Source: Escherichia coli O157:H7
GTDB lineage: Bacteria > Pseudomonadota > Gammaproteobacteria > Enterobacterales > Enterobacteriaceae
Length of the DNA stretch: 64,000 nt
Reading direction: 5' to 3' (one strand)
NCBI RefSeq assembly: GCF_013167455.1
Contig: NZ_CP038328.1
Every line of letters begins with the position of its first letter. Within the stretch, counting starts at the first letter, position 1. Shown here piece by piece: positions 31,601 through 34,600 of this stretch. The position numbers were made by a program.

Positions 31601-34600
31601 CAAACTAATTGCACCCAACACTACAGCAATGGTTGTACGCATATCACACTCTGGTGGGTAATTATGATTATTAAAAGCAAACCCTCATAAATACTATAGA
31701 CGGGACGGGATGAAAGTGGGAGTAAAATCAGATAACTACGATCAGGAAAGATAAAAACGGGCGGCAATCAGTGCGCATAAAATAAGGATGATAAGAATGA
31801 ACTCAAAGCGATAACGGCCCACCATACTACCCTCCGCTAAAGGCGGTGCTAAACGTTACCCGCTTAGCACCGTAATTTTCAGGCGCGAGGGGGCGCGCCA
31901 GCATTACTGTTGAAAACTTACGCTGCGGGTTGTGCAGCAGGTTTTGCCGGTTGCTGATGGCTGTGTTTCTTGGCGTGTTTCTTCGCTGCCTGCGCTTTTT
32001 GTTCTGGGGCTTTCTGTTCAGCTTTCGTATTTTTATGATGCTTTTTAGCCGCCTGCGCTTTCTGGGCAGGTGCTGCTTTATGCTGTTTTTTATGATGTGT
32101 AGTTTTCGCCGGCGCTGCTTTGGTGGTCGTCGCAGTCGGAGCAGGTGTGGTCGCAGTCTCTGCAGCAAAGGCGGCAGAAGACAGACCCATAGCAGCGGCA
32201 ACAACCAGAGCTAATACTTTTTTCATTGTCATACCCTCAATTTGTTTTTTCATTTAACCCCACTGCGGGGCCGTTGAAAGAACTATATCCCTGGGAATGG
32301 CAGACTTCCGTGAGTGGTTGGTTTCAGCGTGTAACGATATGTACAAACGCTGAATAAATTACAGCGTTGATAATAACGTATTGTGACTTAAGGAAAATTT
32401 AGCTACCAATAATAGTAGTCTTGATCGGGTTAACTATTTTACTACTTACAAAGCGGTAGAATAACTGCGCATCAGTAATAAATGACACACAGCAAAATGA
32501 ATCCGTTTATTTGGGTACTTATAATCCTGATGACGCTAGACGCGCTGCGGGAATTGGCTGGCGCTTCGTCTATTTTAGGATGGCTATTAACGTTGGTTTG
32601 AGCAGGCAATAAGTCCGGACGGGTATTTACCGCAGTCCGGACTTATTTTTCAGGCGTGCAGACGACGATGCAAACGCGTCCCGACCAGCAGAGCAATGAC
32701 CAGCATCAGAGCAATAAATGCGCCGACGCCGTTCCAGCCATAGTTATGCCAGAAAACACCACCCAGCGTCCCGGCAATACTCGACCCCAGATAGTAACTG
32801 AACAGATACAGCGAGGAGGCCTGGCCTTTAGCGCGTTTTGCGCGGGGGCCGATCCAGCTGCTGGCAACTGAGTGGGCTGCGAAGAATCCTGCTGAGAAGA
32901 GTAACATTCCGGCAAAGATCAGCCACAGCGAGCTGAATAAGGTCATCAGTAAACCAAACAGCATAACCCCCGTCGAAAACAACATCACTGGACCACGCCC
33001 ATAGCGGGTGGTCATGGTTCCGGCTTTGGGTGAGCTCCATGTACCGGTCAAATAAGCCAGCGATAATAAGCCAACCACGGCCTGACTGACATGCCAGGGG
33101 GAGAGCATCAACCGATAGCCGATGTAATTAAACAGCGTGACGAACGACCCCATCAGCAAAAAGCCTTCTGCGAACAATAACGGTAATCCCCGGTCACGCC
33201 AGTGCAGACGAAAGTTGATAAACAACGACTTAGGTCGCAGCGAAGTCGGGCGAAAATGGCGTGATTCCGGGAGGATTTTCCAGAACATCAACGCCGAGGC
33301 TAGCGCGAAACAACCGATAGCCGCCAGAGCAATTCGCCAGTTGAAAAAGTCCGTGAAGACACCACTAATTAAGCGTCCGCTCATGCCGCCAATTGAGTTG
33401 CCGCTGATATACAACCCCATCGAAAAGGCCACGAAACTGGGGTGGATTTCCTCGCTAAGATAAGTCATGCCAACAGCTGCCACGCCACTTAACGAAAGCC
33501 CAATCAAGGCGCGCATAATCAAAATGCCGTGCCAGCTGGTCATCATTGTCGAAAGTAACGTACAAATGGAGGCCAATAGTAGCGCCGTTACCATCACTGG
33601 TTTGCGACCAATGGCATCGGATAGGGGGCCAGTAAACAGCAAACCAATAGCCAACATCGCCGTGGAAATGGACAGTGAAATACTACTGTTCGCGGGCGTT
33701 AAGCCAAACTCCTGCGAAAGCACCGGAAGGATAGGTTGCACACAATAGAGAAGTGCAAATGTTGCCAGTCCGGCAGAGAACAGCGCCAGGGTGACGCGCA
33801 TAAATTGCGGCGTACCGCGTTTAATAAATTGATTTGGCTGAGAAATGCTTTGCTTGTCAGTGTCGCTTGCCGGAGCGCCATCAACAGTTGTAGTACGGCT
33901 CACTTGAAATCCTTGCTAAATATGCCTGTGGATCAGGCTTATACATAGGTTAGGAAAATCGAATTGTTCTGTCTAATATATTAATAATCTCAAATAAGAT
34001 GTTTTAAATATGAATATTGAACTTCGTCATCTGCGTTACTTTGTTGCTGTTGCGGAAGAGCTGCATTTCGGGCGCGCCGCTGCCCGCCTGAATATTTCGC
34101 AACCGCCGCTAAGTCAGCAGATTCAGGCGCTGGAGCAACAAATTGGTGCCCGACTGCTGGCACGAACCAATCGCAGTGTATTGCTGACGGCAGCAGGAAA
34201 ACAGTTTCTTGCAGATAGTCGGCAAATCCTGTCTATGGTGGATGACGCTGCCGCTCGCGCTGAAAGACTGCATCAGGGTGAAGCGGGGGAGTTGCGCATT
34301 GGTTTTACTTCGTCGGCTCCTTTTATTCGGGCGGTGTCCGATACGTTATCGCTGTTTCGCCGAGATTATCCCGATGTCCATTTACAAACCCGCGAAATGA
34401 ACACTCGCGAGCAAATCGCTCCGCTCATTGAAGGAACGCTGGATATGGGATTGCTGCGTAACACAGCGTTACCGGAGACGCTTGAACACGCAGTCATCGT
34501 CCATGAACCGCTTATGGCGATGATCCCGCACGATCATCCCCTGGCAAATAACCCGAATGTAACGCTGGCTGAACTGGCGAAAGAACCCTTTGTCTTTTTT

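What the first reader, a model, noticed from the sequence alone, without database searches (positions are those of the whole stretch)
32460..32650. Candidate small membrane ORF between asr and ynfM with a strong bidirectional terminator
A 34-aa hydrophobic ORF (39 aa from an upstream in-frame ATG) ends 7 nt before an A-run/8-bp stem/T-run terminator. Its SD is weak, so it may be a leader peptide or not translated at all.
Basis: seen in the sequence. Interest (0 to 1): 0.3.

Follow-up and report, generated by a model that had tools for sequence, protein, structure and literature searches.

The report
Conserved small protein gene beside ynfM
The short open reading frame between asr and ynfM is a real, evolutionarily conserved gene for a 34-residue hydrophobic helical peptide that public annotation pipelines already recognise (KPN_01571 family), although nobody has shown what it does and the E. 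coli K-12 reference record does not list it.

Summary
On the + strand there is an ORF of 34 codons (32497-32601), or 39 from an upstream ATG at 32482. It ends 6 nt before a perfect 13-bp hairpin (8-bp GC core) followed by a T-run that abuts the stop codon of the convergent ynfM.

An ORF this long is not unusual for the spacer: 65% of shuffles give one. Comparison shows it is a gene. A 30-codon homolog lies at the same place in 26 of 80 Enterobacteriaceae species examined, and in Salmonella. No in-frame stop occurs, codon-position variation is 0.37/0.13/0.53, and pN/pS is 0.33. Between genera the ORF is 63% identical while its flanks are 26-28%. Invariant residues use up to six synonymous codons.

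The conserved start is the second ATG (MNPF...). The 39-aa form is Escherichia-only.

The peptide matches NCBIfam NF033695 (63 bits, cutoff 35) and is already in RefSeq as "KPN_01571 family protein". NC_000913.3 (K-12 MG1655) lacks it. AlphaFold predicts one helix.

"Leader peptide" is excluded, because nothing lies downstream on that strand. The Shine-Dalgarno is absent in E. coli.

I found no direct expression data. The function is unknown. A modulator of the adjacent MFS pump YnfM is plausible but unproven, and Cronobacter carries the gene elsewhere.

The parts
32455..32462 (+). GGTAGAAT: putative -10 element (TAGAAT at 32457-32462) of the small gene's own promoter. This is inferred and has not been mapped.
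   Evidence: TAGAAT lies 33-36 nt upstream of the MNP start in all 9 Escherichia/Citrobacter loci, although the flanks are otherwise at random-level identity. A -10-like hexamer sits at a similar distance in Salmonella (TAATAT, 30), Klebsiella/Raoultella (TAAACT/TAAAAT/TACACT, 33-35) and Cronobacter (TATAGT, 29). There is no canonical -35, and the sigma-70 consensus scan found no promoter.
32482..32496 (+). Five in-frame codons (MTHSK) upstream of the conserved start. They are probably 5' UTR. They form the N-terminus of the 39-aa form that PGAP annotates in many genomes.
   Evidence: The upstream ATG is found only in Escherichia and is replaced by a stop context in E. whittamii. The NCBIfam profile aligns from residue 6. 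EPEC has a non-synonymous change here (CAC to TAC) while the 34-aa part is identical.
32497..32601 (+). Coding sequence of the 34-aa KPN_01571-family small protein (MNPFIWVLIILMTLDALRELAGASSILGWLLTLV), including the stop codon.
   Evidence: It scores 63.3 bits against NF033695, cutoff 35, and is annotated in RefSeq as WP_001299090.1. There is no stop in 27 of 27 orthologs, codon-position differences are 0.369/0.133/0.530, and pN/pS is 0.33. Between-genus identity is 63% for the ORF against 26-28% for the flanks, and invariant residues are encoded by 4-6 different codons. AlphaFold2 predicts a helix over residues 3-33 with pLDDT 92.
32608..32647 (.). Hairpin shared by the two convergent genes: 13-bp perfect stem (arms 32608-32620 and 32635-32647) with a 14-nt loop.
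   Evidence: A GC-rich hairpin of unrelated sequence occupies the 28-114-nt spacer between the convergent stop codons in nearly all other genera.
32643..32650 (+). T-run (TTATTTTT) completing an intrinsic terminator for the small-ORF transcript. It overlaps the last base of the ynfM stop codon.
   Evidence: The common 1-nt length polymorphism among E. coli genomes is in this run (5 vs 6 T), not in the ORF.
32650..33903 (-). ynfM, an MFS transporter (417 aa, GTG start), convergent with the small gene.
   Evidence: Pfam MFS_1 at 147 bits. RefSeq names it 'MFS transporter' or 'multidrug efflux MFS transporter YnfM/SxtP(Kp)'.
31918..32226 (-). asr (acid-shock periplasmic protein), transcribed divergently from the small gene. 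Context only.
   Evidence: RefSeq annotation. The start was verified.

Best explanation
Window 32497-32601 (+) is a genuine, independently transcribed gene. It encodes a 34-residue hydrophobic alpha-helical peptide of the KPN_01571 family (NCBIfam NF033695; 30 residues in other genera).

Shown:
- The reading frame, its exact 30-codon core and its amino-acid sequence are maintained by purifying selection across Escherichia, Salmonella, Citrobacter, Klebsiella, Raoultella, Kosakonia, Phytobacter, Pluralibacter and Cronobacter.
- The conserved start is the second ATG.
- The gene ends at a stable hairpin plus U-tract that it shares with the convergent MFS-transporter gene ynfM.

Inferred:
- It is transcribed from its own promoter (conserved TAGAAT -10 at 32457-32462), back to back with the asr promoter region, giving a transcript of about 180 nt.
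- In E. coli it is translated without a Shine-Dalgarno sequence from an A/C-rich, weakly structured leader.
- The peptide inserts into or associates with the inner membrane as a single helix. The only charged residues (D15, R18, E19) sit mid-helix, so the peptide most likely works by packing against a larger membrane protein.
- The leading partner candidate is the adjacent exporter YnfM, because adjacency holds across most genera while the gene on the other side changes. I put that specific partner at only about 0.2-0.25.
For: Family membership: 63.3 bits against a 35-bit cutoff. RefSeq annotates it as WP_001299090.1. The peptide is deposited on at least 1000 contigs under this family name.

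Coding selection:
- 26 of 80 species loci carry a homolog at the same position, and so does Salmonella.
- HMM scores are bimodal: 55-70 bits in carriers and 2 bits or less elsewhere.
- Codon-position variation is 0.37/0.13/0.53, pN/pS is 0.33, and 0 of 27 sequences have an in-frame stop, while the other five frames have stops in 3-27 of 27.
- The ORF is 63% identical between genera while every flank is 26-28%.
- Invariant L11 is encoded by 5 codons, R18 by 6, and P3, A16 and G22 by 4 each.

Within E. coli: the 34-aa protein is identical in O157, K-12, ETEC, UPEC and EPEC, and the one ORF substitution seen is synonymous.

Structure: one helix, pLDDT 92.

Terminator.

Promoter motif.

Transcript: an RNA with a Rho-independent terminator was reported in the ynfM-asr spacer by Raghavan et al. 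2011, as cited in PMC4070566. This is second-hand and the strand is not stated.

Synteny with ynfM: conserved while the far neighbour is asr (Escherichia, Salmonella) or an M32 carboxypeptidase (most others).
Against: - I found no direct evidence of transcription or translation in E. coli. The peptide and its coordinates are absent from the supplements, as held, of four Ribo-seq or small-ORF studies. No 3' end at the hairpin appears in the Term-seq tables as held. The K-12 MG1655 reference record annotates nothing here.
- E. coli has no Shine-Dalgarno sequence and no consensus sigma-70 promoter.
- The gene is dispensable in many lineages. It is absent from 54 of 80 ynfM loci, there is a pseudogene in L029, and it is deleted in L045. 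Single E. coli strains carry a 13-nt deletion or an IS insertion.
- Against the YnfM-partner idea: the two genes are convergent, not co-transcribed. Kosakonia cowanii has a 213-aa gene between them. Cronobacter sakazakii carries the gene in an unrelated locus with no transporter nearby.
- Membrane topology is uncertain. The hydropathy is borderline (1.66) and three charged residues sit mid-helix.
- Conservation does not fall on one helical face (p = 0.62).
Confidence: 0.8

Rival explanations
1. The functional product is a small non-coding or antisense RNA. The roughly 180-nt transcript ending at the hairpin would act by base-pairing, or by convergent-transcription interference with ynfM, and the ORF would be incidental. 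It could also be a dual-function RNA.
For: An 'sRNA' with a Rho-independent terminator was reported in the ynfM-asr spacer (Raghavan 2011, cited in PMC4070566). E. coli has no SD. The convergent layout with a shared hairpin allows read-through antisense to ynfM. Salmonella ynfM shows unexplained post-initiation regulation (PMC4330354).
Against: The conservation is at the amino-acid level. Position 2 is much less variable than position 1, which is less variable than position 3, and invariant residues use up to 6 synonymous codons. The length is fixed at exactly 30 codons, and there is no stop in 27 of 27 sequences. An RNA-level constraint would not give this pattern. There is no Rfam match. Several genera provide a good SD. 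A dual function is not excluded.
Confidence: 0.07
2. It is the toxin of a type I toxin-antitoxin-like module: a small hydrophobic peptide that damages the membrane when expressed and is kept silent by poor translation signals or an antisense RNA.
For: The size, hydrophobic helix and lack of SD in E. coli fit. Its apparent silence in standard-condition datasets also fits.
Against: It is a single copy at a fixed syntenic site (median 1 place per genome). No overlapping antisense gene or long structured 5' UTR is evident, and there is no Rfam hit. The sequence is unrelated to known toxins, with no hit in NCBIfam other than NF033695. Charged residues are central, rather than in a polar C-terminal tail.
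Confidence: 0.05
3. It is a leader peptide or attenuator ORF whose translation controls a downstream gene.
For: The ORF is short and ends 6 nt before a terminator hairpin.
Against: No gene follows on the same strand. Beyond the terminator lies only the 3' end of the opposite-strand ynfM. The stop-to-hairpin distance varies widely among genera. The C-terminus, where arrest or attenuation peptides are most constrained, is the least conserved part.
Confidence: 0.02
4. It is a chance ORF propagated by automated annotation, and not a gene.
For: ORFs of at least 34 codons arise in 65% of shuffles of the spacer. PGAP is inconsistent, calling 39-aa, 34-aa and 23-aa versions. The curated K-12 record omits it.
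Against: All the comparative evidence argues against it.
Confidence: 0.02
5. In E. coli the real product is the 39-aa form (start at 32482) or the 23-aa form (start at 32530), rather than the 34-aa form.
For: PGAP calls the 39-aa form in many genomes and the 23-aa form in newer runs. The 23-aa start has the only detectable SD-like pairing, at -3.7 kcal/mol.
Against: Residues 1-16 of the 34-aa form, including the invariant MNP and L11, are under purifying selection in all genera, which excludes the 23-aa start as the family's start. The 39-aa start is Escherichia-only and is lost in E. whittamii.
Confidence: 0.1

Closest known systems
NCBIfam NF033695 'trnsprt_adja_30' / KPN_01571 family protein (RefSeq WP_001299090.1)
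   Same: It is the same thing. The window's ORF is identical to the RefSeq protein and scores 63.3 bits against a 35-bit cutoff. It is also adjacent to a transporter gene, as the model's short name implies.
   Different: The profile is 30 positions and starts at the second Met. The Escherichia protein has a 4-residue C-terminal extension, and many annotations add 5 N-terminal residues that are probably not translated. No function or publication is attached to the family.
Small single-helix membrane proteins that bind and modulate transporters (AcrZ-AcrB, KdpF-KdpABC, MgtS-MgtA/PitA, SgrT-PtsG). This comparison rests on my own knowledge of the literature.
   Same: A peptide of about 30 residues, predicted to be a single hydrophobic helix, encoded next to a transporter gene, and restricted to enterobacteria.
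   Different: It is not co-transcribed with the transporter (convergent, with its own promoter). No interaction has been shown. The gene sits away from any transporter in Cronobacter. Its charged residues are mid-helix rather than flanking.
YdgU (27-aa small membrane protein, NF052476), two genes away at window 31742-31825 (-)
   Same: It is another very small hydrophobic protein in the same asr neighbourhood, first found by dedicated small-protein searches.
   Different: The sequence is unrelated. ydgU is co-transcribed with asr, is acid- and low-Mg2+-induced, and has been experimentally detected (PMC10746267, PMC11429745). The ORF studied here has no such data.
Bidirectional intrinsic terminators between convergent genes
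   Same: One stable hairpin lies in a 48-nt spacer between two convergent stop codons, with an A-rich tract on one side and a T-rich tract on the other.
   Different: It is asymmetric. The canonical U-tract serves the small gene, and the ynfM strand has only UUAUU. In Kosakonia the polarity is reversed, with the A-run upstream on the small-ORF strand.

Membership tests
NCBIfam NF033695 (KPN_01571 family, trnsprt_adja_30) | HMM score at or above the curated cutoff (35 bits) | tested here: met
   63.3 bits, E = 1.2e-17.
NCBIfam NF033695 (KPN_01571 family, trnsprt_adja_30) | Full-length match to the ~30-residue profile | tested here: met
   Profile positions 1-29 of 30 align to residues 6-34 of the 39-aa translation. 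Orthologs are exactly 30 aa.
NCBIfam NF033695 (KPN_01571 family, trnsprt_adja_30) | Encoded next to a transporter gene (implied by the model's short name) | tested here: met
   It is convergent with the MFS gene ynfM, with 48 nt between the stop codons. This is not universal in the family, since the Cronobacter copy has no transporter neighbour.
Transporter-modulating small membrane proteins (AcrZ/KdpF/MgtS type) | Single transmembrane helix | tested here: inconclusive
   AlphaFold2 predicts a helix over residues 3-33 with pLDDT 92. The best 19-residue hydropathy is 1.66, which is borderline, and D15, R18 and E19 lie mid-helix. No dedicated topology predictor was available.
Transporter-modulating small membrane proteins (AcrZ/KdpF/MgtS type) | Physical binding to the transporter with an effect on its activity or stability | not testable with these tools
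   This needs co-purification, two-hybrid or multimer modelling. The structure tool here folds single chains and returns no contacts.
Transporter-modulating small membrane proteins (AcrZ/KdpF/MgtS type) | Co-expression with the partner (same operon or regulon) | tested here: not met
   It is on the opposite strand, convergent, and separated from ynfM by a terminator.
Type I toxin-antitoxin toxin | Cis-encoded antisense RNA antitoxin and/or a long structured 5' UTR | tested here: inconclusive
   No Rfam family matches in 3 kb at E <= 1.
Type I toxin-antitoxin toxin | Toxicity on overexpression | not testable with these tools
   This requires an experiment.
Leader peptide / transcription attenuator | A regulated gene downstream on the same strand | tested here: not met
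   The next feature on the + strand side is the terminator, followed by the 3' end of the opposite-strand ynfM.
Rho-independent terminator | GC-rich stem-loop immediately followed by a U-tract | tested here: met
   On the + strand there is a 13-bp stem at -29.7 kcal/mol followed by UUAUUUUU. On the - strand the tail is UUAUUGCC, which is a weak tract.
Rho-independent terminator | Mapped RNA 3' end at the U-tract | tested here: inconclusive
   No 3' end at K-12 positions 16709xx-16711xx appears in the Term-seq supplementary tables as held. The files may be truncated, and the conditions were standard media.

The most novel reading that the evidence does not exclude
The KPN_01571 peptide could be a dedicated membrane-embedded modulator of the YnfM/SxtP-type MFS efflux pump. 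Alternatively, its convergent transcription unit, sharing one hairpin with ynfM, could tune ynfM expression. Either way E. coli would gain another small-protein/transporter regulatory pair, and a silent efflux pump would be linked to the acid- and low-Mg2+-responsive asr promoter region.
Probability: 0.2. Interest if true: 0.45.

Novelty: already known. Interest (0 to 1): 0.3.

Why it matters
The gene is already in RefSeq under a curated family model, so it is not a discovery. Three points are still useful.

1. The curated E. coli K-12 MG1655 record lacks a small-protein gene that is conserved across the core Enterobacteriaceae. None of the K-12 small-protein papers I could open mentions it.
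2. Pipeline annotations disagree on its start (39, 34 or 23 aa). The comparative data settle this in favour of the 34-aa form.
3. It is a clean example of a gene that SD-based and standard-condition Ribo-seq screens would miss, yet that comparative genomics identifies without ambiguity.

If the peptide turns out to modulate the poorly understood YnfM efflux pump, it would join the short list of small proteins that control transporters.

Tried and rejected
- A conserved helical face as a sign of a helix-helix interface: the helical moment of conservation is not significant (p = 0.62). Rejected.
- D15/R18 covariation (D..R to G..Q in L037 and L066): it is real, but it may reflect a single evolutionary event, so I treat it only as a hint of an intrahelical salt bridge.
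- Obligate linkage to ynfM: my first survey was anchored on ynfM and was therefore circular. Starting instead from divergent family members showed a relocated copy in Cronobacter and an inserted gene in Kosakonia cowanii. The 'always transporter-adjacent' idea is rejected.
- The mirror ORF on the - strand (32472-32609, 45 aa) and the +2-frame ORF (32511-32612): these frames have stops in 3 and 9 of 27 orthologs, with pN/pS of 0.54 and 1.9. Rejected as genes.
- Literature searches for direct expression evidence found nothing on this ORF. I searched the supplements of Schumacher 2023, Stringer 2021, Fesenko 2024 (preprint), smORFer and Adams 2021. Weaver 2019 and Conway 2014 have no supplements held. 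Raghavan 2011, Thomason 2015 and Fesenko 2025 are not held. One look-up went to a wrong PMC id that I recalled incorrectly.
- My automated count of T residues after hairpins (second half) is unreliable, because the chosen structures absorbed the T-run. I do not use it.
- The PDB profile search gave only a chance-level match to one transmembrane helix (E = 0.035).
- Fusing YnfM and the peptide for AlphaFold was considered and dropped, because the tool returns no contacts or PAE.
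Full report
WHAT IS THERE. The window is E. coli; the region is 100% identical to O157:H7 and related genomes. 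All annotated genes around the finding lie on the - strand:
- ydgD, 30821-31642
- ydgU, 31742-31825 (27 aa)
- asr, 31918-32226
- ynfM, 32650-33903

The finding's ORF is on the + strand, so it is divergent from asr and convergent with ynfM. Its coordinates, verified, are:
- ATG at 32482, giving 39 aa, directly preceded by TAA
- ATG at 32497, giving 34 aa (MNPFIWVLIILMTLDALRELAGASSILGWLLTLV)
- ATG at 32530, giving 23 aa
- Stop TGA at 32599-32601

Six nucleotides after the stop begins a perfect 13-bp hairpin. Its arms are 32608-32620 and 32635-32647, the core is the 8-bp GTCCGGAC, and the loop is 14 nt. TTATTTTT follows, and its last T is the first base of the ynfM stop codon read on the other strand. 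The hairpin is far more stable than shuffled sequence on both strands (-29.7 and -26.8 kcal/mol, z about -6.5). Only the + strand has a proper U-tract.

The gap is 6 nt rather than 7. The terminator is strong for the small ORF and weaker for ynfM, rather than symmetrically bidirectional.

IS THE ORF MORE THAN CHANCE? Taken alone, it is not. An ATG ORF of at least 34 codons occurs in 65% of shuffles of the 423-nt asr-ynfM spacer. The case rests on comparison.

I retrieved the ynfM locus from 80 species-representative genomes of Enterobacteriaceae and searched downstream of ynfM. A homolog is present on the opposite strand, immediately downstream of ynfM, in 26 of the 80. These are Escherichia species, three Citrobacter, Kosakonia, Phytobacter, the Klebsiella oxytoca group, Raoultella, Pluralibacter and several unnamed lineages. 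Salmonella enterica also has it, although no gene was called there in that assembly.

Outside Escherichia the ORF is almost always exactly 30 codons (one Citrobacter amalonaticus copy is 35), and it always starts MNP. A profile built from these sequences separates carriers (55-70 bits) from non-carriers (2 bits or less) with nothing in between.

CODING TEST.
- Across 27 distinct nucleotide sequences, mean pairwise differences by codon position are 0.369, 0.133 and 0.530.
- Pooled pN is 0.23 and pS is 0.70, a ratio of 0.33 with pS near saturation.
- None of the 27 has an in-frame stop in the 30 codons, while the other five frames contain stops in 3 to 27 of 27 sequences.
- Between genera the ORF is 63% identical at the nucleotide level. 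The 30, 60 and 90 nt upstream and the 30 nt downstream are 26-28% identical, which is the random level.
- Invariant residues are written with many synonymous codons: L11 with five, R18 with six, and P3, A16 and G22 with four each.

This is selection on a protein, not on an RNA or a DNA site.

Within E. coli the 34-aa protein is identical in O157, K-12, ETEC, UPEC and EPEC. The one substitution inside the ORF is synonymous, and the frequent 1-nt length difference lies in the terminator's T-run. The region is present at 80% coverage or more in 5390 of 5426 complete genomes.

WHICH START? The NCBIfam profile begins at the second Met, and all orthologs start MNP. The upstream ATG exists only in Escherichia, and in E. 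whittamii a TAA directly precedes the MNP start. The 23-aa start would discard residues that are under clear constraint, including the invariant MNP and L11. PGAP is inconsistent, calling 39 aa in many genomes, 34 aa in others, and 23 aa as 'hypothetical protein' in newer runs.

WHAT IS ALREADY KNOWN. The ORF is RefSeq protein WP_001299090.1, 'KPN_01571 family protein'. It matches NCBIfam NF033695 (short name trnsprt_adja_30) at 63.3 bits against a curated cutoff of 35. The 39- and 34-aa E. coli forms are each deposited on at least 1000 contigs, and 30-aa forms are named the same way in Klebsiella, Raoultella, Kosakonia and Citrobacter.

The family is narrow. Only 15 clusters at 50% identity reach E <= 1e-3 among 1.84 billion representative proteins. 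It has no Pfam family, no relative in the PDB, and no paper mentioning KPN_01571.

The curated K-12 MG1655 record NC_000913.3 annotates nothing between ynfM and asr. The K-12 small-protein papers I could open discuss the neighbours asr-ydgU but never this ORF.

EXPRESSION SIGNALS. In Escherichia, Citrobacter, Kosakonia and Phytobacter there is essentially no anti-SD pairing (-2 kcal/mol or weaker, no better than random positions). Klebsiella, Raoultella, Pluralibacter and a few unnamed lineages (L037, L060) have -5.7 to -9.4 kcal/mol, and the Cronobacter copy has AAGGAG. SD-less leaders are A/C-rich and predicted to be largely unpaired. Initiation independent of an SD is a reasonable inference, but it is not shown.

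No consensus sigma-70 promoter is found. However, a -10-like hexamer sits at a conserved distance from the start:
- TAGAAT at 33-36 nt in all nine Escherichia and Citrobacter loci
- TAATAT at 30 nt in Salmonella
- TAAACT, TAAAAT or TACACT at 33-35 nt in Klebsiella and Raoultella
- CATAAT at 33-35 or 48-50 nt elsewhere
- TATAGT at 29 nt in Cronobacter

This predicts a TSS near window 32469-32471 and a transcript of about 180 nt.

Second-hand, an RNA with a Rho-independent terminator was reported in the ynfM-asr spacer by Raghavan et al. 2011, as cited in PMC4070566. I could not open that paper. I found no direct Ribo-seq, TSS or 3'-end evidence in the supplements available to me. Those files may be truncated, and most conditions were standard.

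THE PRODUCT. AlphaFold2 with the family alignment gives a single helix over residues 3-33 with mean pLDDT 92. The N-terminal half (F4-L14) is strongly hydrophobic. The only charged residues are D15, R18 and E19, in the middle. The C-terminal half is G/A/S-rich and moderately hydrophobic. The best 19-residue hydropathy is 1.66, which is borderline for a transmembrane segment.

M1, N2, P3, L11, A16 and G22 are invariant, and D15 and R18 are nearly so. D15 and R18 change together to G and Q in two lineages, which is a hint of a salt bridge but possibly a single event. Conservation does not concentrate on one helical face (p = 0.62).

GENOMIC LOGIC. The ancestral layout is ynfL (LysR), then ynfM, then the convergent small gene, which is divergent from an M32 carboxypeptidase gene (Pfam Peptidase_M32, 543 bits), followed by asr, ydgU and ydgD. 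This order is seen intact in Kosakonia cowanii. Escherichia and Salmonella lack the M32 gene, so asr is the divergent neighbour.

Where the small gene is present, the ynfM-to-M32 spacer is about 250-290 nt. Where it is absent, the spacer is 72-77 nt. Loss is ongoing: L029 has an internal deletion plus a frameshift, and L045 has lost the ORF and its promoter but kept the hairpin. One E. coli strain has a 13-nt deletion and another an ISVsa5 insertion.

A hairpin occupies the short spacer between the convergent stops in nearly all carriers, but its sequence and the side bearing the A/T tracts differ among genera.

FUNCTION. 'Leader peptide' is excluded by layout. A purely non-coding RNA is excluded by the codon-level signal, although a dual function is not. 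A type I toxin cannot be excluded, but it fits poorly: the gene is single-copy at a fixed syntenic site, no antisense partner is seen, and the charges are central.

The NCBIfam short name and the synteny point to the adjacent MFS exporter. PGAP now calls it 'YnfM/SxtP(Kp)'. SxtP is an MFS pump activated by a LysR regulator in A. baumannii (Gaona 2024, as cited in PMC13104710).

My ynfM-anchored survey was circular on this point, so I started again from the most divergent family members. In K. cowanii a 213-aa gene separates the small gene from ynfM. In Cronobacter sakazakii the small gene sits between yebY and a pphA-like gene, has its own SD and terminator, and has no transporter nearby. Adjacency is thus common but not obligatory.

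My best mechanistic guess is a membrane-embedded helix that acts by binding a larger membrane protein, with YnfM as the first candidate at roughly 0.2-0.25. This is inference only.

VERDICT. The finding is a real feature and was correctly described. It is a bona fide small-protein gene. It is also already annotated and modelled as a family, so it is not new. The remaining value is that it is missing from the K-12 reference annotation, that its start can now be fixed at the second ATG, and that it has no experimental characterisation.

Noticed in passing
window 33884 (- strand), equivalent to K-12 1669718 (+): The Term-seq tables of Adams et al. 2021 list an RNA 3' end 19 nt inside the ynfM coding sequence. 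This suggests premature termination or processing at the very start of ynfM. In Salmonella, ynfM also shows a mismatch between promoter activity and transcript level (PMC4330354).
   Followed up: no
window 32404-32415 (CTACCAATAATAG), about 91 nt upstream of the small ORF's start: A CCATAATAG-like motif is conserved at 88-93 nt upstream of the start in Escherichia, Salmonella and Citrobacter, and again at 55-57 nt in most Kosakonia/Phytobacter-like loci (42 nt in P. massiliensis). It lies in the shared divergent promoter region with asr or the M32 gene. It could be a regulator site or a -10 element for either direction.
   Followed up: partly
window 31918-32253 (-): The mechanical ORF list extends asr to 111 aa from an upstream ATG at 32253 ([14 protein letters not shown]...). 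RefSeq and the K-12 record start it at 32226, giving 102 aa.
   Followed up: no
L090 (Kosakonia cowanii) 1-6222, compared with window 30821-33903: Other genera have an M32 carboxypeptidase gene between the small ORF and asr. Escherichia and Salmonella have lost it, which brings the acid-shock asr promoter region back to back with the small gene.
   Followed up: partly
L089 (Cronobacter sakazakii) 4001-4246: The relocated family member is convergent with another tiny hydrophobic ORF on the opposite strand (called as 43 aa; it contains MTIFTHEAIVSFIGCVVAAIFMLWLFGRKHDK), with a hairpin between them. This repeats the layout of a small gene convergent with a membrane-protein gene. That ORF has no NCBIfam match.
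   Followed up: partly
L088 (E. coli HN68) 1119-2487; L087 (E. coli HM670): An ISVsa5-family IS element is inserted after codon 18 of the small ORF in strain HN68. A 13-nt deletion truncates the ORF in HM670. 73 of 5424 matching records fall in the 90-95% identity band that HM670 represents.
   Followed up: partly
window 32472-32609 (-): A 45-codon ORF mirrors the small gene on the opposite strand. It is the usual antisense shadow of a coding region: stops occur in 3 of 27 orthologs and pN/pS is 0.54.
   Followed up: yes
window 32482-32601 (+), in public annotations: PGAP versions disagree on this gene. Older runs aa with the family name, some aa, and newer runs call a 23-aa 'hypothetical protein' (WP_211114082.1) that drops the conserved N-terminus.
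   Followed up: yes
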